Below are positions 4,283 through 56,610 of a stretch of 64,000 nt of DNA, in pieces. This DNA comes from Octopus sinensis. Taxonomy: Eukaryota. The DNA lies in NCBI RefSeq assembly GCF_006345805.1, contig NC_042997.1:145080001-145144000 (forward strand). Reading direction: 5' to 3'. Made by a program: the position numbers and the translations under genes. A model generated the notes under the pieces. It was not told where the DNA came from. It worked only from the letters and a program-made list of their open reading frames with translations, and searched no databases. The number at the start of each line of letters is the position of its first letter. The first letter of the stretch is position 1.

Positions 4283-4344
<62 letters not shown>

Positions 4345-4553
4345 CACACATACATGCATCCGTAAATATATAGAAACATACATACACATACATATATACA
4401 TACATATATATATATACATATATATTATATATATTATATATATATATATGACATTATATAGCATATAATGCACTTTCCAGAATCTAAGAGATAAAATTAT
4501 TTTTCAATACAATAGCAAAATCAACTTTTTTTGTCCTACTCGGATTATTATCA

Positions 4554-4627
<74 letters not shown>

Positions 4628-9804: not shown

Positions 9805-12345
9805 TGTGTGTGTGTGGTGATATCATGAATGCGTGTGGTGATATCATGAATGTGTGTGGGGTGATATCATAAATGTGTGTGGTGATATCATGAATGTGTG
9901 AGGAGTGATATAATGAATGCGTGGGTGGTGATATCATGAATGTATGTGTGGCGATATCATGAATGTGTGTGTGGTATTATCATGAATGTGTGTGTGTGTG
10001 TGGTGATATCATGAATGTGTGTGGTGATATCATGAATGCTGTGTGTGGTGATATCATGAATGTGTGAGGAGTGATATCATGAATGCGTGGGTGGCGATAT
10101 CATGAATGTATGTGTGGCGATATCATGAATGTGTGTGTGATGATATCATGAATGTGTGTGTGTGGTGATATCATGAATGTGTGAGGAGGGATATCATGAA
10201 TGCGTGGGTGGTGATATCATGAATGTATGTGTGGCGATATCATGAATGTTGTGTGGTGATATCATGAATGTTTGTGTGTGTGGTGATATCATTGTATGTG
10301 TGTGTGGTGATATCATGAATGTATGTGTGGTGATATCATGAATGCGTGTGTGGTGTGATATGAATGACTGTGGTGTTGATATCATGAATGTGTGTGTGGT
10401 GATATCATGAATGTATGTGTGGTGATATCATGAATGCGTGTGTGGTGATATCATGAATGTGTGGGTGGTGATATCATGAATGTGTGGTGGTGATATCATG
10501 AATGCGGGTTTGGATATGATATTTATGAATGTTGTGAAGTGATATCATGAATGTGTGGGGTGATATCATGAATGTGTATGTGTGGTGATATCCTGAATGC
10601 GTGTGTGGTGATATCATGAATGCGTGTGGTGATATCATGAATGTGTGTGTGGCGATATCAATGAATGTGTGTGTGGTATTATCATGAATGTGTGTGTGTG
10701 TGTGGTGATATCATGAATGTGTGTGGTGATATCATGAATGTATGTGTGGTGATATCATGAATGTGTGAGGAGTGATATCATGAATGCGTGGGTGGCGATA
10801 TCATGAATGTATGTGTGGCGATATCATGAATGTGTGTGTGATGATATCATGAATGTGTATGTGTGGTGATATCATGAATGTGTGAGGAGGGATATCATGA
10901 ATGCGTGGGTGGTGATATCATGAATGTATGTGTGGCGATATCATGAATGTGTGTGTGGTGATATCATGAATGTGTGTGTGTGGTGATATCATGAATGTGT
11001 GTGTGGTGATATCATGAATGTATGTGTGGTGATATCATGAATGCGTGTGTGGTGATATCATGAATGACTGTGTGGTGATATCATGAATGTGTGTGTGGTG
11101 ATATCATGAACGTATGTGTGGTGATATCATGAATGCGTGTGTGGTGATATCATGAATGTGTGGGTGGTGATATCATGAATGTGTGTGGTGATATCATGAA
11201 TGCGGGTTTGGTGATATTATGAATGTGTGTGAAGTGATATCATGAATGTGTGGGGTGATATCATGAATGTGTATGTGTGGTGATATCCTGAATGCGTGTG
11301 TGGTGATATCATGAATGCGTGTGGGTGATATCATGAATGTGTGTGTGTGGTGATATCATGAATGTGTGTGGTGATATCATGAATGTATGTGTGGTGATAT
11401 CATGAATGTGTGAGGAGTGATATCATGAATGCGTGGGTGGCGATATCATGAATGTATGTGTGGCGATATCATGAATGTGTGTGTGATGATATCATGAATG
11501 TGTGTGTGTGGTGATATCATGAATGTGTGAGGAGGGATATCATGAATGCGTGGGTGGTGATATCATGAATGTATGTGTGGCGATATCATGAATGTGTGTG
11601 TGGTGATATCATGAATGTGTGTGTGGTGATATCATGAATGTGTGTGTGGTGATATCATGAATGTATGTGTGGTGATATCATGAATGCGTGTGTGGTGATA
11701 TCATGAATGACTGTGTGGTGATATCATGAATGTGTGTGTGGTGATATCATGAATGTATGTGTGGTGATATCATGAATGCGTGTGTGGTGATATCATGAAT
11801 GTGTGGGTGGTGATATCATGAATGTGTGTGGTGATATCATGAATGCGGGTTTGGTGATATTATGAATGTGTGTGAAGTGATATCATGAATGTGTGGGGTG
11901 ATATCATGAATGTGTATGTGTGGTGATATCCTGAATGCGTGTGTGGTGATATCATGAATGCGTGTGGGTGATATCATGAATGTGTGTGTGTGGTGATATC
12001 ATGAATATGTGTGGTGATATCCTGAATGCGTGTCTGGTGATATTATGAATGTGTGTGAAGTGATATCATGAATGTGTATGTGTGGTGATATCCTGAATGC
12101 GTGTGTGGTGATATCATGAATGTGTGTATGGTGATATCAAGAGAGTGTGTGTGTGGTGATATCATGAATGTGTATGTGGGGAATCATGAATGCGTGTGTG
12201 GTGATATCATGAATGTGTGTGTGGTGATATGAATGTGTGTGGGGTGATATCATGAATGTGTGTGTGGTGATATCATGAATGTGTGTGTAGTGATATCATG
12301 AATGTGTGTGGAGTGATATCATGAATGTGTGTGTGGTGATATCAT
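9805..12345. repeat. Minisatellite, ~21-28 bp monomer gtgg-TGATATCATGAAT-g(tg)n, with a ~640-700 bp higher-order period
   Basis: About 100 copies of the constant core; the rare variant gcgggtttgg recurs at 10504, 11202 and 11845. Confidence 0.95.
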
Positions 12346-14075: not shown

Positions 14076-15339
14076 AGTTGTGAACTGAATCGATTCAGTT
14101 ATATTAACGACGAAAGTGGATTTGTGACAACAGAAAATGGAACCTTGACCGAAGCTTTCTGTCTCCTGGAGTTTAATTCTTAGTTCGCAATATTCATAGA
14201 GAAAATAAATACAGCGCTACTTTCTGGTATCACTATAAGAACAGCAACTAAATCAATCCCATACATAACTGTTCGTGATTTTGTCCATCACAAGTGTGCG
14301 CATGTGTAAGTAATTTTCATTTCACTCTTTTCTTCGTTTCATTTTTTTTTTTACTTCCTTTAATGCCTTTCTTTCTTTCTTTCTTCCTCCCTTCTTTCCT
14401 TTATTTATTTTGATCTATTTGGATCCCAAAAAAACAGATTTCAGTATTTTGCTCTGAAGTAGCATAGCGCCATTAGTTAAATACGAACAGACGACACTCG
14501 AAAAACAAAACGAAAACAAAAGCAAAATGGTAAAACAGAAACATTATCAATTCGGTCTTTACAATTTCATTCTCAGACACAATGTATAAACCAGTCGAAT
14601 TGTTACGAGAGTCCTAGAGTAGAAGGTAAACACTCTGGGCAAACTGAAACCGAAAGTCGCTCTCGGATCTCGACATAAAAAAAAAGTGCTTGAACGTTAT
14701 AGTATTCTTTAATTGTCTCCCTTATCGAAAGCCGGTTTAGATTCTCAACTGAAGCGACCATCTTAATTCCTTTAAAAAGAAATAAAAAGACATGGATACC
14801 ACAGCATTATATAATTGTCTTCTCTTTTTGAAAAGTAGATTTTGATTCCCGGTTGAATCTGCCATCGTAATTCCTTTAAAAAGAAATAAAACGGCATGAC
14901 CATCACAACATCCTATCATTGTTTCCCTATTATATTCTTACGATTTCATACTGAAGTCAAAAGTCAATATTGAATTCTCAACCAACAAAAATGAGTGAGC
15001 AAATAAATAAGTACATAAATTTTTAAAAAATAAATGTCTTTGAAATAAATGAAAATGATTTGTCGAACCTACTTGGCAGGTTTGGTTTCTTTCGTTTTGG
15101 CACATTATTCTGCAGTAATTCAAAATTTCTGTGTTGCTGAATTAAAATCTATTATAGTATTTGAAAATTGATTTTTCTCTTTAGCTCGAAGCTATTACTA
15201 TTTTTACAACAAATCATACTGCCTTAGTTTAATCACATGCGTCTTTGTTTTAAACGGATTTGCACTGTTGTGCATTTTTGTTTTTTTCTAAAAAAGAAAA
15301 CTGTGCATCGTCGTCGTCATCATCATCATCAGCACTATC

Positions 15340-17760
15340 ATCATCATCATCGTTGTCGCCGTCGTCGTCGTCGTCATTATCATCACCACCACCAACAACA
15401 ACAACATCACTACCACCAACACCTACAAAACCACCATCACCATTATCATCATCATCATCATCGCCAACATCAATGTTATTATGACTAGGCGCAGGCATGG
15501 CTATGTGGTTAAGAAGCTAGCATTGCAACCGCGTGGTTTCGGGTTCAACCCCACTACGCGGCACCTTGTGCAAGTGTCTTCTACTACAGCCTCGGGTCGA
15601 CCAAATCCTTGTGAAAGAATTCGGTGAATGGAAACTGTGTGGAAGTCTGTCGTGTATACGTGTGTGCGTATATGTCTGTGTGTCTTTCTGTCTGCTTTTG
15701 TTCCACCACCACCACCACTTAACAAACGGTATTGGTTTGCTTGTGTCCCCATAACTTAAAAGTTTGGCAATAAAGACAGGTAAAATAAGCTTCGTTCGAC
15801 TAAAAGCCTTCAAGGCGATGCCCCAGCATGGTCGCAGTCCAATGACTGAACCAAGTAAAAGATAAAGTTTACCAGCACCAATAACTCCACCACCACTACC
15901 AACACCGACATAGGCCTTCAAATCAGAGGCGGGAGTGGGGTGGAAGCTGCCACATCCCAACTCACATTCAAACTCGATTGTGGGGAAAATTCGGGCAAAA
16001 GCAAGAAAATAAACAATCGTCGGACAGTGAAAAGAAAAACAAATGGAAAAAAAATTACAGATCAGCAATTACGGGAAATGAATTTAGACAACCAAAATCA
16101 TAAAAAAAAAAACAACCCATCTAAAATTTGTACCGATCATCATCATCATCATCGTCGCCGTCGTCGTCGTCGTCATTATCATCACCACCACCAACAACAA
16201 CAACATCACTACCACCAACACCTACAAAACCACCATCACCATTATCATCATCATCATCGCCAACATCAATGTTATTATGACTAGGCGCAGGCATGGCTAT
16301 GTGGTTAAGAAGCTAGCATTGCAACCGCGTGGTTTCGGGTTCAACCCCACTACGCGGCACCTTGTGCAAGTGTCTTCTACTACAGCCTCGGGTCGACCAA
16401 ATCCTTGTGAAAGAATTCGGTGAATGGAAACTGTGTGGAAGTCTGTCGTGTATACGTGTGTGCGTATATGTCTGTGTGTCTTTCTGTCTGCTTTTGTTCC
16501 ACCACCACCACCACTTAACAAACGGTATTGGTTTGCTTGTGTCCCCATAACTTAAAAGTTTGGCAATAAAGACAGGTAAAATAAGCTTCGTTCGACTAAA
16601 AGCCTTCAAGGCGATGCCCCAGCATGGTCGCAGTCCAATGACTGAACCAAGTAAAAGATAAAGTTTACCAGCACCAATAACTCCACCACCACTACCAACA
16701 CCGACATAGGCCTTCAAATCAGAGGCGGGAGTGGGGTGGAAGCTGCCACATCCCAACTCACATTCAAACTCGATTGTGGGGAAAATTCGGGCAAAAGCAA
16801 GAAAATAAACAATCGTCGGACAGTGAAAAGAAAAACAAATGGAAAAAAAATTACAGATCAGCAATTACGGGAAATGAATTTAGACAACCAAAATCATAAA
16901 AAAAAAAACAACCCATCTAAAATTTGTACCGATCATCATCATCATCATCGTCGCCGTCGTCGTCGTCGTCATTATCATCACCACCACCAACAACAACAAC
17001 ATCACTACCACCAACACCTACAAAACCACCATCACCATTATCATCATCATCATCGCCAACATCAATGTTATTATGACTAGGCGCAGGCATGGCTATGTGG
17101 TTAAGAAGCTAGCATTGCAACCGCGTGGTTTCGGGTTCAACCCCACTACGCGGCACCTTGTGCAAGTGTCTTCTACTACAGCCTCGGGTCGACCAAATCC
17201 TTGTGAAAGAATTCGGTGAATGGAAACTGTGTGGAAGTCTGTCGTGTATACGTGTGTGCGTATATGTCTGTGTCTTTCTGTCTGCTTTTGTTCCACCACC
17301 ACCACCACTTAACAAACGGTATTGGTTTGCTTGTGTCCCCATAACTTAAAAGTTTGGCAATAAAGACAGGTAAAATAAGCTTCGTTCGACTAAAAGCCTT
17401 CAAGGCGATGCCCCAGCATGGTCGCAGTCCAATGACTGAACCAAGTAAAAGATAAAGTTTACCAGCACCAATAACTCCACCACCACCACCACCTCTACCA
17501 CCACTACCAACACCGACATAGGCCTTCAAATCAGAGGCGGGAGTGGGGTGGAAGCTGCCACACCCCAACTCACATTCAAACTCGATTGTGGGGAAAATTC
17601 GGGCAAAAGCAAGAAAATAAACAATCGTCGGACAGTGAAAAGAAAAACAAATGGAAAAAAAATTACAGATCAGCAATTACGGGAAATGAATTTAGACAAC
17701 CAAAATCATAAAAAAAAACAACCCATCTAAAATTTGTACCGATCATCATTATCATCATCG
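15340..17760. repeat. Tandem triplication of a ~796-bp unit containing a family A SINE (15487, 16283, 17079)
   Basis: ORF track repeats at +796 (15501/16297/17093); copies 1 and 2 look identical, copy 3 has small indels and a SNP. Confidence 0.95.
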
Positions 17761-21192: not shown

Positions 21193-21375
21193 GATCTACC
21201 TTAGGTATGATAAGCAGAATGCTAATTTAAACTAGTACTGTTTCTGGCGCACATACAGACTTTTTTTCTGTTCTTATTGCATACTAGAATTCAAATTGTT
21301 TGTCTCTAATTTACATTATTTACATTTGACGGATATTTGTCCAAGTTCGATTCCAGGCAGTGACCTGAATAATAA

Positions 21376-21469
<94 letters not shown>

Positions 21470-38364: not shown

Positions 38365-38675
38365 GCACTCCGTCGGTTACGACGACAGGGGCTCCAGCTG
38401 ATCTGATCAACGGAACAGCTTTTTCTTGAAATTAACATGCCTTCCACAGACATGCGTAACCTTAACGCAGCTCCCAGGGAGATTCAGTGTGATACAGAAT
38501 GTGTCAAGGCCGGCCTTTTGAATTACAGGTAGAACTCATTTTTGCTAGCTTGGTGAACTGGAAGAATGTGAAAGAAAATGCCTTGTTCAAGGATGCACCG
38601 TACCGCTTGGAATCGAACTCACGGCCTTAGGGTCGTAAGCAGAATACTCCCACAACTAAGCCACGCGCTTTCACG
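38365..38675 (-). mobile_element. SINE family D head with the RTE-like tail of family C
   Basis: Tail agcactccgtcggttacgacgac matches 37148; head actaagccacgcgc matches 53450. Confidence 0.75.
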
Positions 38676-38913
38676 CACGGTAGAAAAGATGTCCAAAGGT
38701 TATATGGCGAAAATATGTGCTGAACTTATTGAAATATTAAAGCAGCGGGAACTAATAACAGAAGAAACTTTGTCAGAATATAAAATCAATGGAGAGACCA
38801 CTACGACGAAAACTTTTGTTAATGAGGCAGACGACACTGCAATGATACTAGCGTTCTTGTTACGTTGCAAAATTAATGCTGACATTTTCTTTCATAACAT
38901 AAGTTTACTATTT

Positions 38914-48879: not shown

Positions 48880-51540
48880 ATTGTTCAGTTTATTTCAAGA
48901 TTTCTTGCCAATAAAGAGCCGGTTTCTAACCTAGATCCAAGGCTCCTTCATTGGAATTTCAACATCAACAGCAGGGTATTTTTGTTTGTATGTATGCATG
49001 TATGAATGTATGTATGTATGTATGTATGTATGTATGTATGTATGTATGTAGGTTTGTATGCATTCATGCATGTATGCACATGTGCAGACCTGCATGCTCC
49101 GCGTTATGTATTCTCATGCACACAGTTGCACACCCAGATATGGTCATACATATTTAAATGACAAACTTCCGGGAAGTTTTACAGACCAGTGATGGACAGG
49201 ATCTGCAGTCTTCGAACCAGTCTTCCCTCCTCTGATCTTGAGAAGCCCAATCTCTCAAGACTGCCATTCGAGTAGTGTGACATATATTCCAGAACCCCAA
49301 TAATTACAGGTATACACCTGAACATGTAATCTGGATGGAGCAACTGCAGATTTCTCAATTGTTCAGCGTATGTGTTCTCTTTTTCACTGATTTTCAGCTT
49401 TATGTTAACATCCGTTGGATAGCTAACTTCCAGAACTGTACACAGTTTCTCTTTTCTATCCCAAATCATTATATCAGGTCTACTGTGCTTACATTTTATT
49501 GAGGTCTTCACTAGGACATTCCACCAGTACTCCTTTTTATTATGAGTGGCTGTATCTTCTACGATACTGTTAGCTTTTATTTCTTTGTCCTCGGGGTTAT
49601 CTTTCCGACGGATTTCATTATATAGTGTCCTAGCTACAACATCATGTCTCATCGGTAGATAATACCGTGATGACACTTTCGGACAAGTATTTACTATGTG
49701 GATGACATCATTGGTGCCAAATCCACAAAGTCTGCATCGGTTGTTACATTTTAATGACCCTCCTGCATCTCCATCCCTTTTGTGCATCAAGCACCTGGCC
49801 GACATCTCCTGTTCCTGGATTGCAAACGCGCACCCCTCAAAGTGGGAGGTAGCAATCCGGCCATTGGTCCATGACAGACTGATCCGATGACCAATGTCAT
49901 CATCATCCCGGAGCTCTCTACCAACTCATCCATGCATAGCCCTCTGCTCACACGGACTCATTCCCTCATCTGACGACACGCCGCAGTAGAGTCGTGCGAC
50001 TTCCCTGGGCATGTATTATAGGTTATCAGATAAGGGATGCCGCTCAAAGAGCCGCCCTTATGATGTTATCAGTCTCATGTATGCAAACTTGGTTAAGAGA
50101 TGCACTTCGACAACCGGTGGTTAAAAGATGTTGCCGAAAGGATATGACACAATATTCAAAGACATTTTCGATCGATGTTAAGCCTCTGCCACCTTGTTTT
50201 CGTTTTAGGTAGAGGCGGTCTACGTCACTGTTTAAGTGGAAATTATATGAACTTGTTAGTATTTTTCGGGTTTTCAAATCAATGGCTCGGATCTCATTAA
50301 ACATCCAGTCAAGCAGCCCAAATGTTGGCATGAGTACTAGCTCTACAAACACTTTGTGGGCCACTACTTTCTTGAATGCAAAGAGTCCCGAGGCCCAAAT
50401 TTTCCTTACTCGGCTGCAATACTCCTTAGTGATACGTATTTTGCCACAGGTGCTACCGCAACATATATCCACATATGTCCCCGCCTGAGAACAATCAGTC
50501 TGCAAGCGAGTGTCCTCTCCGCGCTGTCTCCAGACATCACCTCCATCTCCTTCTCTACTTTCCCTTGGTGGGACATATAGTTATTTGCTTGTTTGCACGA
50601 AATAAGCATCATTACATGACTGATGGTCCTCCGTAACCAAGTTATCTTTTTCTCTGTCTTCAAAACTCCTGACGGTACCTTCTTTGTTGCTTCGGTTTTG
50701 TTTACCTTTTGAATGTCACTTATGAATTTATTTGTAGCAGCCAGAGCACACAAGCAGGCGTCAATCCGCAAGAATGTGGGCCCATCTCACAGCCGCAAAT
50801 ACTCATCACTAATCTCGCCAACAGCCTTCAATATTGCACCCGGTGATCTTCCATTTACCTTGGGAGAGAATACTCTCTGAAGAGAGTGCTTCAAAGCCAA
50901 AGCCACTTCTTCTCGGAAAATTTCAGCAAGGGCACACCCCTAACGGTATATAATCCTGACCACTACTACTACTACTACAATAATCGTTTCGGTTGCGCCT
51001 GCTGTTTACCACAGTCGCAGCAGGGGAACAATAGTCAGTTACCTGAGCCAGTAATGTAGTCTGGCTGGCAGGCACTATGGAATCTGTTGGAATGTCGCCA
51101 CTCATACCACTCACGCTTTCGCCCTTGTCTATAGAGCTGAGAAGAAAGTCAATCCTTGACCCTCCAACAAAGTTACATTTACTAACCCTCTTCGACATGT
51201 TTCACAAACATCGCCCACCGGCACAGCTTCTTCGCAGCAAAATGATTCAACTCCGGATACAGATCGTCCCAATATGACCTCAATTGATTCATATAGCCAA
51301 CATAAAGGTTTTCTTTCGCTTTTCTGAAGCGGTTAAATAGATCAGCATTCAATTCATAACTCCAGTAGAAATAAGTTTTGTAATTACAGTTTCTTCTATA
51401 ACTACAGCAAGAAAGAATTTGTTTACCTGTTGAGCTGTTGTTTTCGCTCTCTTTTTCGGTTGCTTTGTTGTTGATGTGTCCAGCCATGTTGTTTGTAGAA
51501 ACTCTCTGCATGCTAAATTCAAGTTTCAGTCGAAAACCAA
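48880..51540 (-). mobile_element. Internally deleted R4/Dong-like LINE (N-terminal domain, RT thumb, CCHC, RLE, 3' UTR)
   Basis: 'YWS.ELN.DL.......GYMNQL..YWD..YP'; 'IDLKTRKILT...FHLNSDVDRLYLKRKQGGRGL'; 'CRLC.....VIHIVNTC'; 'RHDVVA'; 'RPDI.IWD..EKE..Y..L'; RT core absent near 50480-50520. Confidence 0.85.
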
Positions 51541-54329: not shown

Positions 54330-56210
54330 TGATTGGCAGAATCGTTTGAGCATCGAACAAAATGAATGCCGTCTGGTATTTCTTCCAGTTCTTTGCATTT
54401 TGAGTTCAAATCTTACGGAGATTAACTTTACCTTTTATCCTTTCGGGAACGACAGAATAAATGGTACCTCAGCATGACTGCAGACTAATGACTGAAACAA
54501 GTTAAAGAATAACAGAATCAAATACTGGAATTGATGGTATTGGCTTGTCCCACCCGTAAGAACTGCTAATCGTGTCCCTAAGTTAACCCGTAATACCGGT
54601 TTACCGGTAGATGGCATATTTTTCTCTATACCGTAGCACCGCTATACTGGGAGAGTGCATCAGGAAGCCAGGTGTATGATCAAATAAGGTTCAGGAGATC
54701 AGGGCTCAAAGGGTTAATAAGCATTATTAACAGTGCTGAATGTGGTGAATCGGCAGAATTGATACCGCACCGAACAAAAAACTTAACGGTATTTCTTCCG
54801 TCTTCACGTTCCGAGTTCAAATTCCGCCGAGGTCGACTTTGCCTTTCATCCTTTCGGGGTCGATTAAATAAGTACCAGTTACGCACTGGGTTCGATATAA
54901 TCGACTTAATCCGTTTGTCTGTCCCCTCTGTTTAGCCCCTTGTGGGTAGTAAAGAAATGGGTATTTCTTCCGTCTTCACTTTATTTAACGTTGCTCCAGT
55001 TCATTCAGCTGTAGAAATAATGTTGTGTTGTGAAAGGCGGGGAGCTGGCAGAAACGTTAGCACGCCGGGCGAAATGCTTAGCGGTTTTACGTTCTGAGTT
55101 CAAATTCTGCCGAGGTCGATTTCGCCTTTCACCTTTCGGAGTCGATAAAATGAGTACCAGTTGAGTACTGGGATAAATTTAATCAACTTAATCCCTTCCC
55201 TGAAATTGTTGGCCTTATACCAAGATTTGAAATCATTAACAATGGTGACGGTGGCAGGCTGGCAGATTCATTAGCACACCGAACAAAATGATTAACGGCA
55301 TTTCTTCAAGCTTCATATTCTGAGTCCGAATTCCGCCAAGATTCACTTTGCTTTTTTCCTTCGGAGTCGATAAAATAATTATCAGTTGAGCACTTACCCT
55401 CTTCCCTCAAAATTTCAGGCCTTGCATCCATTTTAGAAAGAATAATTAATGGTGGTAGGAGGTCGGCAGAATCATTAAAACGTCAGAAAAAAAATGATTT
55501 GTAGTATTTTTTCTGACATTTTAAGCCGCAGGAGTAGCTCTGTGGTAAGAAGCTTGCTTACCAACCACATGCTTCTGAGTTCAGTCCCACCGCGTGGCAC
55601 CTTGGCCAAGTGTCTTCTACTATAGCCTTGGGCCGACCAAAGCCTCGTGAGTGGATTTGATAGACTGAAAATGAAAGAAGCCCGTCGTATATATGTATAT
55701 GTATATATAGGTGTGTGTGTTTGTCCCCCCCCACCACCACCACCATCACTTGACAACCGATATTGGTGTGTTTACGCCTCCGTAACTTAGCGGTTCGGCA
55801 AAAGAGACCGATGGAATAAGTACTAGGCTTACAAAGAATAAGACTTGGGGTCGATTTTTTCGACTAAACGCGGTGCTCCAGCATGGCCGCTGTCAAATGA
55901 CTGAAACAAGTAAAAGAATACACGTTCTGAGTTCAAATCTCATCAAGATCCATGTTTTCTTTTCATCTTTTTCTGGTTCGAAAAAATAAAATACCCATCA
56001 AGTTTTGGACCCATGGTATCGACTAACATCGCCCTAACTATCAAATTTGCTGCTCTTGTTCTTAACTTACGAATAATATTCCTTTCTACTATACGCACAA
56101 GACCTGAAATTTGGCGGGAGGAAGCTAAACGAATACATCGACCCCAGTGTTTAACTGGTACTTATTTCATCAATTCCGAAAGGATGAAAAGCAAAGTCAA
56201 CCTCAGCGGT
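54330..56210. mobile_element. Dense cluster of family B SINEs with a nested family A SINE (55525-55920)
   Basis: Family B heads at ~54335, 54750, 55036, 55255 and 55460; the last resumes at 55921; minus-strand copy at 56075-56210. Confidence 0.85.
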
Positions 56211-56308
56211 CTCAACCACTATGCTATATGCCCGTGGGTATATTGCGTAGTGGTTAAGAGCGCGGGCTACTAACCCCAAGATTCCGAGTTCAATTCCAGG
56301 CAGTGACA

Positions 56309-56342
<34 letters not shown>

Positions 56343-56572
56343 CAACAACAACAACAACAAACAATAATAATAATAATAATCATAATAATAATAACATCGA
56401 AAAAATACCTTAGGAATGAGAACCCAGTTTCGAAATTTCCCCCAACACACCTGATGAAGGCTGGAGGGTATATCAGCCGAAACGTTGTGTTAACAACAAA
56501 CAAGATGAGGACAAATATCCGTCAAATGTAAATAATGTAAATAATGTACATAATTCCTCATCTCTTAAATAG
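56210..56572 (+). mobile_element. tRNA-like-head element containing a hammerhead ribozyme
   Basis: Head gggtatattgcgtagtggttaagagcgcgggctactaaccccaagattccgagttcaattcc (A/B boxes, anticodon-like arm ggg-ctactaa-ccc), (AAT)n linker, HHR, tail (gtaaataat)n; inverted head fragment at 56210-56233. Confidence 0.75.
56447..56490 (+). ncRNA. Minimal type-I hammerhead ribozyme, intact core
   Basis: acac CTGATGA a ggctg gagggtatat cagcc GAAAC GTT gtgt; loopless self-complementary AACGTT stem III. Confidence 0.85.
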
Positions 56573-56610
56573 AACTGAAAAAAGGTTTCGTTACACACGT
56601 TAAAATACGG

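What the first reader, a model, noticed from the sequence alone, without database searches (positions are those of the whole stretch)
56210..56572. SINE-like tRNA head coupled to an intact minimal hammerhead
Seen: A box, B box and anticodon-like arm, then (AAT)n, then acac-CUGAUGA-a-ggcug/cagcc-GAAAC-GUU-gugu and a short repeated tail. An inverted copy of the first ~24 nt precedes the head and forms a hairpin. Established: the tRNA-like Pol III promoter plus HHR layout is that of Schistosoma SM-alpha repeats; inverted 5' segments typify PLE insertions. Inference: a Pol III-transcribed SINE mobilised by a PLE rather than by a LINE.
Basis: partly seen in the sequence, partly recalled or inferred. 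Interest (0 to 1): 0.8.

Follow-up and report, generated by a model that had tools for sequence, protein, structure and literature searches.

The report
Penelope retroelement with built-in tRNA promoter
This SINE-like repeat is the end piece of a Penelope-type jumping gene that carries a tRNA-derived promoter motif and a hammerhead motif, and the whole coding element lacks the T-runs that stop RNA polymerase III, so it likely is, unusually, a protein-coding retrotransposon transcribed by the tRNA-making polymerase, with thousands of short SINE-like offspring.

Summary
In detail: A/B boxes, (AAT)n, a minimal type I hammerhead and an inverted 5' arm are all present. The unit is not a free-standing SINE. 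It is the pseudo-LTR (pLTR) of a Poseidon-type Penelope-like element (PLE; about 800 codons, RT plus GIY-YIG). The head follows the ORF end in 26 of 30 ORF copies, and the hammerhead precedes the ORF start in 15 of 30. Insertions show PLE marks: two 3' ends about 35 nt apart, one on each arm in 33 of 40 inverted pairs.

New relative to the papers I read: the pLTR carries a tRNA-like head, and 5' ends pile up at its first base (exact 20-mer hits 4,938 in the head against 843 and 903 upstream). The 2.7-kb sense strand has no TTTT (codon shuffle P about 0.03; 11 other PLE ORFs here have 3-13). One distant PLE has a similar head and few TTTT.

Pol III transcription and cleavage are inferred, not shown. 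RNA-seq from a related species was uninformative, and palindrome self-priming could also explain the pile-up. New variant of a known kind; interest 0.6.

The parts
56206..56238 (-). Short inverted (fold-back) copy of the family head, family positions about -5 to +28 relative to the tRNA-like first base
   Evidence: 88% identity over 33 nt to the reverse complement of the family head; hairpin z = -3.07
56229..56240 (.). Palindromic hinge (family TGCCC-AC-GGGCA, positions -7 to +5) where the inverted and forward arms overlap
   Evidence: Sequence; many family 5' ends and inversion joints fall here
56236..56310 (+). tRNA-like head; in longer copies it begins about 35 nt after the PLE stop codon
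   Evidence: Aligns end to end with this genome's tRNAs, best local scores Arg(TCT), Cys, Ala, parent unresolved; follows the ORF end in 26 of 30 copies
56243..56253 (+). A box (second base G>T in this copy)
56287..56297 (+). B box
   Evidence: matches the B boxes of this genome's tRNAs
56311..56394 (+). (AAT/AAC)n microsatellite, length variable among copies
56416..56418 (+). ATG that opens the PLE reading frame when the unit sits as a 5' pLTR (this copy has an extra C downstream)
   Evidence: Open frames of 391 and 256 codons in L235 and L233 contain this Met and run through the hammerhead into the ORF; L229's 401-codon frame does too
56447..56490 (+). Minimal type I hammerhead; predicted cut after 56486; self-complementary AACGUU in place of stem III
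   Evidence: matches the min-HHR described in PMC4209133
56491..56544 (+). ORF N-terminal coding stretch, ending at 3' end site A
   Evidence: 88 of 168 mapped 3' ends fall at +41 to +70 from the cut
56545..56577 (+). Optional PLE tail of about 35 nt, ending at 3' end site B
   Evidence: 76 of 168 mapped 3' ends fall at +85 to +104; runs straight into the ORF in long copies

Best explanation
[quoted passage not shown] Steps: (1) shown, the unit flanks an 800-codon RT-EN frame on both sides. (2) Inferred, Pol III starts about 7 nt before the tRNA-like first base, in 5' pLTRs, 3' pLTRs and solo copies alike. (3) Inferred from the lack of TTTT, it can read through the whole ORF. (4) Inferred by analogy to anole Poseidon, the protein nicks both target strands and primes at two internal sites 35 nt apart, downstream of the hammerhead. 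(5) Inferred, cDNA that reaches the RNA 5' end folds back on the palindrome, giving inverted arms such as the 33-nt one here. (6) Shown, head-start copies outnumber ORF-bearing copies about six to one; because the promoter motif is internal, they could propagate like a SINE. The hammerhead probably cuts only as a dimer or with protein help and does not set the insertion ends. This copy is a probably dead 5'-bounded copy.
For: Identity as pLTR: head follows the ORF end in 26 of 30; hammerhead directly before the ORF start in 15 of 30, full head in 5. Column majority of 26 natural pieces gives an unbroken 800-codon frame. 225 homologues at E<=1e-20; groups with Poseidon-type proteins away from Neptune-like ones in a quick tree. 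The frame through the hammerhead is shared with P0004 (TPDDG..PKRCV) and reported for anole Poseidon. PLE mechanism: 3' ends bimodal; 33 of 40 inverted pairs have one A and one B end (P=2e-6 on the 38 A/B pairs). Defined 5' start: exact 20-mers give 903 (ORF), 843 (UTR), 4,938 (head, 60 nt further). 18 of 30 head-anchored and 16 of 35 hammerhead-anchored head-bearing copies end between -22 and +9. Pol III signature: 0 TTTT in 2,698 nt; codon shuffle expects 2.7 (P=0.034), base shuffle 4.3 (P=0.016), control-PLE rate about 5-6 (P=0.002-0.005). 18 of 26 single pieces have none. 11 Neptune-like ORFs in this genome have 3-13. Of 33 related PLE segments only L308 has A/B boxes before its hammerhead, and only L308 is T4-depleted at P<0.05. 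No TATA before the hammerhead here, against 5 of 10 in headless relatives.
Against: No transcript evidence. In three RNA-seq runs of a related species (about 6% of each read) reads lay equally in both directions, no start or end pile-up was listed, and ORF depth was about 3-23 against up to about 3,800 on the pLTR; this fits passenger copies in host RNAs. Palindromes at pLTR 5' ends and at inversion joints are known in rotifer PLEs and read there as self-priming, so the pile-up needs no promoter. The codon-controlled P is only 0.03, and GGGG is also absent (1.0 expected). L308 is one case: Rfam does not call its head a tRNA, it has a TATA-like motif at -47, and two TTTT near its ORF start (whole-frame P=0.18). 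Four headless segments also have no TTTT, with 0.2-2.0 expected. The head scores below tRNA cut-offs (best 22 bits against 29; ARAGORN 0 of 31 at default). A Pol III RNA is uncapped, and how it would be translated is unexplained. The copies examined are 4.7-8.5% from the majority, so the family may be extinct.
Confidence: 0.6

Rival explanations
1. An ordinary Poseidon PLE transcribed by Pol II or by read-through. The head is a passenger: a small tRNA-(AAT)n SINE that landed in an ancestral pLTR. 5' ends pile up because RT stalls or self-primes at the palindrome and tRNA fold, and the lack of TTTT is chance in an A-rich strand.
For: Palindromic pLTR 5' ends and self-priming are described (PMC3846280). 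Drosophila Penelope has an internal promoter likened to those of LINEs. Many 5' ends here are inversion joints at the palindrome. Truncation is frequent everywhere in the unit (35 of 70 end before the head). P for T4 is modest.
Against: Several copies start at -7 to +6 with no inverted arm (for example L142, L145, L141, L124, L048, L186, L160, L173). The boundary sits where a Pol III start would be, about 14 nt before the A box (recalled rule). T4 loss covers 2.4 kb of ORF and recurs in the one other element with a head. No TATA.
Confidence: 0.3
2. One reading: an independent SM-alpha-like SINE, built from a tRNA head and a hammerhead, mobilised in trans by a separate PLE.
For: Short copies far outnumber ORF copies; the layout resembles schistosome SINE-like elements (review passage).
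Against: The identical unit, head included, is contiguous with the ORF on both sides, and its 3' half encodes the ORF N-terminus. I saw no headless version of the parent as a family: 3 of 30 ORF-end copies skip the head, each at a different joint.
Confidence: 0.05
3. A non-LTR retrozyme: hammerhead cleavage of tandem units makes circular RNAs that are reverse transcribed.
For: Type I hammerhead; retrozymes are proposed PLE derivatives.
Against: No copy end maps to the cut site (3' ends start at +41). Among the first 100 listed hammerhead places only one same-strand pair lay within 1 kb, and it is a local duplication that includes flank. No read pile-up at the cut.
Confidence: 0.05

Closest known systems
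Penelope/Poseidon-clade PLEs, e.g. anole Poseidon PAc (Frangieh et al. [quoted passage not shown]
   Same: Single RT plus C-terminal GIY-YIG ORF; pLTR with a minimal hammerhead overlapping the ORF start; two 3' ends that define a 30-40 nt tail; partial tandems and inverted 5'-truncated arms.
   Different: The pLTR holds a tRNA-like A/B-box head and an (AAT)n tract, with no TATA before the hammerhead; 5' ends pile up about 190 nt upstream of the hammerhead, at the head; the whole sense strand lacks TTTT.
Schistosoma SM-alpha / Sj-alpha SINE-like elements (seen only through review passages in PMC6765202 and PMC8490949; the 1998 paper was not held)
   Same: Pol III-type promoter followed by a type I hammerhead.
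   Different: SM-alpha is non-coding and often tandem, and is released by its ribozyme. Here the unit is part of an autonomous coding element, copies are dispersed, and ends are not at the cut site.
tRNA-derived SINEs (SINE2) paired with LINEs
   Same: tRNA-like head with internal promoter motifs, 3' part shared with the autonomous partner, very many short copies starting at the head.
   Different: The head is inside the partner itself; the partner is a PLE; no simple-repeat 3' tail; PLE-type ends and inversions.
Helenus, Ajax and Cassandra (small-RNA-derived sequence in LTRs; PMC10886601, abstract listing and reference passages only)
   Same: A tRNA- or 5S-like sequence placed in the terminal repeat of a retroelement.
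   Different: Those are non-autonomous LTR elements; this is a coding PLE.
Animal non-LTR retrozymes (bioRxiv 10.64898/2026.07.22.740005; PMC7761336)
   Same: Short hammerhead-bearing units related to PLE pLTRs.
   Different: No tandem arrays seen here; the word tRNA does not occur in that preprint's main text.

Membership tests
EN+ Penelope-like element, Penelope/Poseidon type | One ORF with PLE-type RT and C-terminal GIY-YIG | tested here: met
   800-codon frame; homologues carry PF00078 and related Pfam marks; tree (quick method). Pfam scan of three natural fragments gave no significant domain hit; homologue P0004 hit RVT_1.
EN+ Penelope-like element, Penelope/Poseidon type | pLTR repeated at both ends by partial tandem | tested here: met
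EN+ Penelope-like element, Penelope/Poseidon type | Minimal type I hammerhead in the pLTR | tested here: met
   (motif and covariation; cleavage not tested)
EN+ Penelope-like element, Penelope/Poseidon type | Optional 30-40 nt tail on one arm; inverted 5'-truncated copies | tested here: met
   33 of 40 inverted pairs are A+B
EN+ Penelope-like element, Penelope/Poseidon type | Target site duplication of about 8-13 nt | tested here: inconclusive
   8-13 nt in 13 of 40 pairs, 6-7 nt in 8, none in 19; none convincing at the window copy
tRNA-derived SINE | tRNA-derived head with A and B boxes at the 5' end | tested here: met
   below Rfam and ARAGORN thresholds; parent tRNA unresolved
tRNA-derived SINE | Separate non-autonomous element whose head is absent from the autonomous partner | tested here: not met
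   Head is part of the PLE in 26 of 30 ORF-end copies
tRNA-derived SINE | Transcribed by Pol III | not testable with these tools
   Only indirect signs; RNA-seq uninformative
SM-alpha-like element / non-LTR retrozyme | Tandem arrays of hammerhead-bearing units | tested here: not met
   One close same-strand pair among 100 listed places, a flank-inclusive duplication
SM-alpha-like element / non-LTR retrozyme | Unit ends set by ribozyme cleavage; circular RNA | tested here: not met
   None of 168 3' ends at the cut; circular RNA itself not testable
Active hammerhead ribozyme | Self-cleavage as monomer or dimer | not testable with these tools
   The minimum-energy fold is not the ribozyme fold for monomer or dimer; min-HHRs are reported inactive as monomers

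The most novel reading that the evidence does not exclude
An autonomous, protein-coding retrotransposon transcribed end to end by RNA polymerase III from a tRNA-derived promoter captured in its pseudo-LTR, with the coding strand purged of Pol III terminators. The same promoter turns every solo pLTR into a built-in SINE, and the arrangement arose at least twice among Poseidon-type elements (this family and L308).
Probability: 0.4. Interest if true: 0.82.

Novelty: new variant of a known kind. Interest (0 to 1): 0.6.

Why it matters
Coding retrotransposons are thought to use Pol II promoters or, for R2, a Pol I co-transcript. A coding element on Pol III would be a third route and would raise the question of how an uncapped RNA with a hammerhead inside its reading frame is translated. 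It would also show a direct path for SINE birth, with promoter capture inside the autonomous element rather than fusion of a tRNA to a LINE tail. It offers a testable origin for SM-alpha-like promoter-plus-hammerhead repeats. The signature (A/B boxes before the hammerhead plus a TTTT-free ORF) can be screened across all PLE libraries at once. Practically, annotation tools are likely to count these thousands of copies as SINEs.

Tried and rejected
Rfam and ARAGORN at default thresholds recognise neither head nor hammerhead. A GIY-YIG Pfam search of the genome returned Neptune-like families; none of the 30 loci matched this unit, so they were used only as controls. The parent tRNA could not be named: the 46 tRNA loci sampled gave Arg, Cys, Ala, Thr, Lys, Phe and one Ser call only. 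No RNA holder was listed by the run search. RNA-seq lay gave no start or end pile-up and no strand bias. Contigs of four runs under four organism labels cover both ORF and pLTR, and single contigs bridge head and ORF in three of them; depths there cannot rank parts. Two scans of viral contigs found nothing. No second Poseidon-type family appeared in this genome: all 30 loci fetched from a search with a distant homologue were this family. Low Phe content (2.4%) was rejected as evidence, since 22 of 126 homologues are as low. The binomial test on 5' ends assumes uniform truncation and is not relied on. No TSD was found at the window copy. DNA of the closest protein relatives (P0001, P0003-P0006) was not obtained, which leaves the best comparative test open. 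Repbase and Dfam could not be searched, so the family may already have a consensus there. No supplements were read.

Full report
Observation. The inverted arm is about 33 nt and the unit ends at 56577. Alone these motifs are weak. The family makes them real. The genome (G000, 2.72 Gb; an AT- and microsatellite-rich animal genome whose repeats recall an octopus, recalled and not tested) has 1,551 exact matches to the 34-nt hammerhead core and 4,938 to a 20-mer in the head, with zero for the reversed controls. With copies about 6% from the majority, the true numbers are probably in the tens of thousands (inference).

What it is. Reading copies picked only by the hammerhead showed PLE endonuclease coding sequence directly upstream of the head in some. 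Of 30 loci found with that ORF end, 26 continue into the head and 29 into head or body. Of 30 loci found with the ORF start, 15 have the hammerhead directly upstream, 5 of them with the full head; several others have only the tail, and some rows are duplicates of one locus. The column majority of 26 natural pieces gives an unbroken 800-codon frame with RT and C-terminal GIY-YIG motifs. It has 225 homologues at E<=1e-20 and groups with Poseidon-type proteins, far from the Neptune-like families of the same genome (quick tree, careful search unfinished). The frame opens at an ATG about 34 nt before the hammerhead core and runs through it. Homologue P0004 (47% identical over 350 aa) has the same hammerhead-encoded N-terminus. 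Anole Poseidon also has its ORF start in the hammerhead (PMC11167929, parts 1-2 of 4 read). The unit is therefore the element's pseudo-LTR.

Insertion marks. Of 168 mapped 3' ends, 88 lie at +41 to +70 and 76 at +85 to +104 from the predicted cut; none is at the cut. In 40 head-to-head pairs, 33 have one end of each kind, 5 have two short ends and 2 are other (P=2e-6 on 38; three loci contribute ambiguous pairs). Duplications of 8-13 nt flank 13 of the 40, 6-7 nt flank 8, and none was found for 19. This matches the tail and inverted-copy pattern described for PLEs (10.1101/2021.04.23.441226, passages; PMC3846280, passages) and the two RT start sites shown in vitro for anole Poseidon.

The hammerhead. 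It fits the min-HHR of PMC4209133 (parts 1-2 of 4): short stem I, long stem II with an unpaired base, palindrome in place of stem III. Across this copy and 10 related PLE hammerheads the core is invariant and 8 of 9 stem pairs change on both sides. In 106 family copies not selected on the motif, 51 keep all core letters, and the only shared core variant is N7. Activity is untested; such motifs are reported inactive as monomers, and the anole one needed protein.

The unusual part, 5' ends. Exact 20-mer counts are flat in the ORF end and UTR (903; 843) and jump to 4,938 sixty bases further on, inside the head. In 30 head-anchored copies, 7 run into the ORF or UTR, 18 end at -22 to +8 relative to the tRNA-like first base, and 5 at +13 to +21 (two pairs of rows are redundant). 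In 70 hammerhead-anchored copies, 17 end in the body, 18 in the AAT tract, 14 at +51 to +11, 16 at +9 to -17, and 5 go further. So 16 of the 21 copies that reach +9 stop within the next 26 nt. Ends at -12 to -22 are mostly inverted arms overlapping the palindrome at -7 to +5. Three of the five full heads in front of an ORF also begin here. The window copy is of this class, with a short fold-back arm.

The unusual part, terminators. If the head is a Pol III promoter, the transcribed strand should avoid TTTT; I tested this as a prediction. The 2,698-nt majority has none, against 30 A-runs and 8 C-runs; G-runs are also absent (1.0 expected). Codon shuffling expects 2.7 T-runs (P=0.034) and base shuffling 4.3 (P=0.016). 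Scaled to 18 related PLE segments of similar T content (43 observed, 35 expected) P is 0.002-0.005. The 26 single pieces hold 10 runs in all, and 18 have none. Eleven Neptune-like ORFs of at least 400 codons (of 20 loci fetched; several are copies of one family) have 3-13. Weak terminators of the T3VT2 type are also absent (2.3 expected).

Comparison with relatives. Scans of metagenome and genome-bin contigs gave 43 related PLE loci; I dropped 10 near-duplicates and scored 33. Only L308, a complete pLTR-ORF-pLTR element 40% identical to P0003 and not sister to this family, has A/B-like boxes followed by AAT repeats before its hammerhead. It is also the only segment with significant T4 depletion (0 in 1,734 nt, P=0.023). 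Against this: its whole frame has two TTTT near the start (P=0.18), it has a TATA-like motif at -47, Rfam does not see a tRNA there, four headless segments also have no TTTT at low expectation, and many loci do not include their pLTR. Five of 10 headless pLTRs have a TATA box 35-42 nt before the hammerhead, and 9 of 10 have TTTT within 200 nt; the window copy has no TATA there.

RNA. No indexed holder was on record as RNA. Three raw RNA-seq runs of a related species label, about 6% read, gave equal depth in both directions, up to about 3,800 on the pLTR and about 3-23 on the ORF start, and no start or end pile-up. This fits passenger copies in host transcripts and says nothing for or against Pol III. 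Copies found with a distant homologue are 4.7-8.5% from the majority (27 loci), so the family may be extinct.

Mechanism and rivals. Most likely (0.6), the captured head is the element's promoter: Pol III transcripts begin just before it, the PLE protein primes at the two internal sites, and cDNA reaching the RNA end folds back on the palindrome. Identity as a PLE pLTR is about 0.95; end-to-end Pol III transcription of the coding element is about 0.4. The main rival (0.3) is a normal PLE with a passenger tRNA fragment and palindrome-driven stops, for which rotifer PLEs give precedent. An independent SINE (0.05) and a retrozyme (0.05) are contradicted by contiguity with the ORF and by the ends.

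Literature. Nine searches turned up no report of a tRNA-derived head in a PLE pLTR or of a Pol III-transcribed coding PLE. The library lacks most subscription papers, and Repbase and Dfam could not be searched. Further passages read: PMC6765202, PMC2377424, PMC7761336, PMC8490949, PMC13282606, PMC10886601, PMC6685494 (which mentions short non-autonomous Penelope elements), PMC5753468, and bioRxiv 10.64898/2026.07.22.740005 (part 1 of 5 and passages). Ferbeyre 1998 was not held. No supplements were read. Pol III promoter and terminator rules are recalled knowledge.

Verdict. A real feature and a member of the Poseidon-type PLEs, as a new variant: a pLTR with a tRNA-like head, SINE-like short copies and a terminator-free coding strand. 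Interest 0.6; 0.82 if Pol III transcription of the whole element is shown.

Noticed in passing
L308:1510-1770 and 4300-4564: A complete pLTR-ORF-pLTR Poseidon-type PLE in a metagenome contig with its own A/B-box-like head, AAT repeats and hammerhead; TTTT only at two sites near the ORF start, one inside a perfect hairpin just after the hammerhead.
   Followed up: partly
window 21309-21380: A second, tiny insertion of the same family: an inverted 3' piece joined to the B-box end of the head and a few AAT units.
   Followed up: partly
window 56423-56440: A second B-box-like motif lies between the AAT tract and the hammerhead (family GGTTCGAAAT), possibly the remnant of another tRNA-like segment.
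   Followed up: no
window 56229-56240 (family -7 to +5): The hinge palindrome can form a 4-bp stem with a CACG loop, a tetraloop type recalled as extra stable in RNA.
   Followed up: no
window 38560-38680, minus strand: A different tRNA-headed SINE-like repeat with a similar B box but another body.
   Followed up: partly
window 15300-17700: A roughly 800-bp unit repeated three times with near-identical sequence (identical 183-codon stop-to-stop frames at 15517 and 16313).
   Followed up: no
window 9807-12345: Satellite of 23-bp units, about 110 copies.
   Followed up: no
window 49179-50580, minus strand: Broken LINE-like reverse transcriptase and restriction-like endonuclease frames.
   Followed up: no
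L241-L250, L256 (G000): Neptune-like PLE families with intact frames of 760-880 codons in many near-identical copies, probably young.
   Followed up: partly
L344-L379: Dozens of eukaryotic PLE loci sit in prokaryotic genome bins, which points to host contamination of those bins.
   Followed up: no
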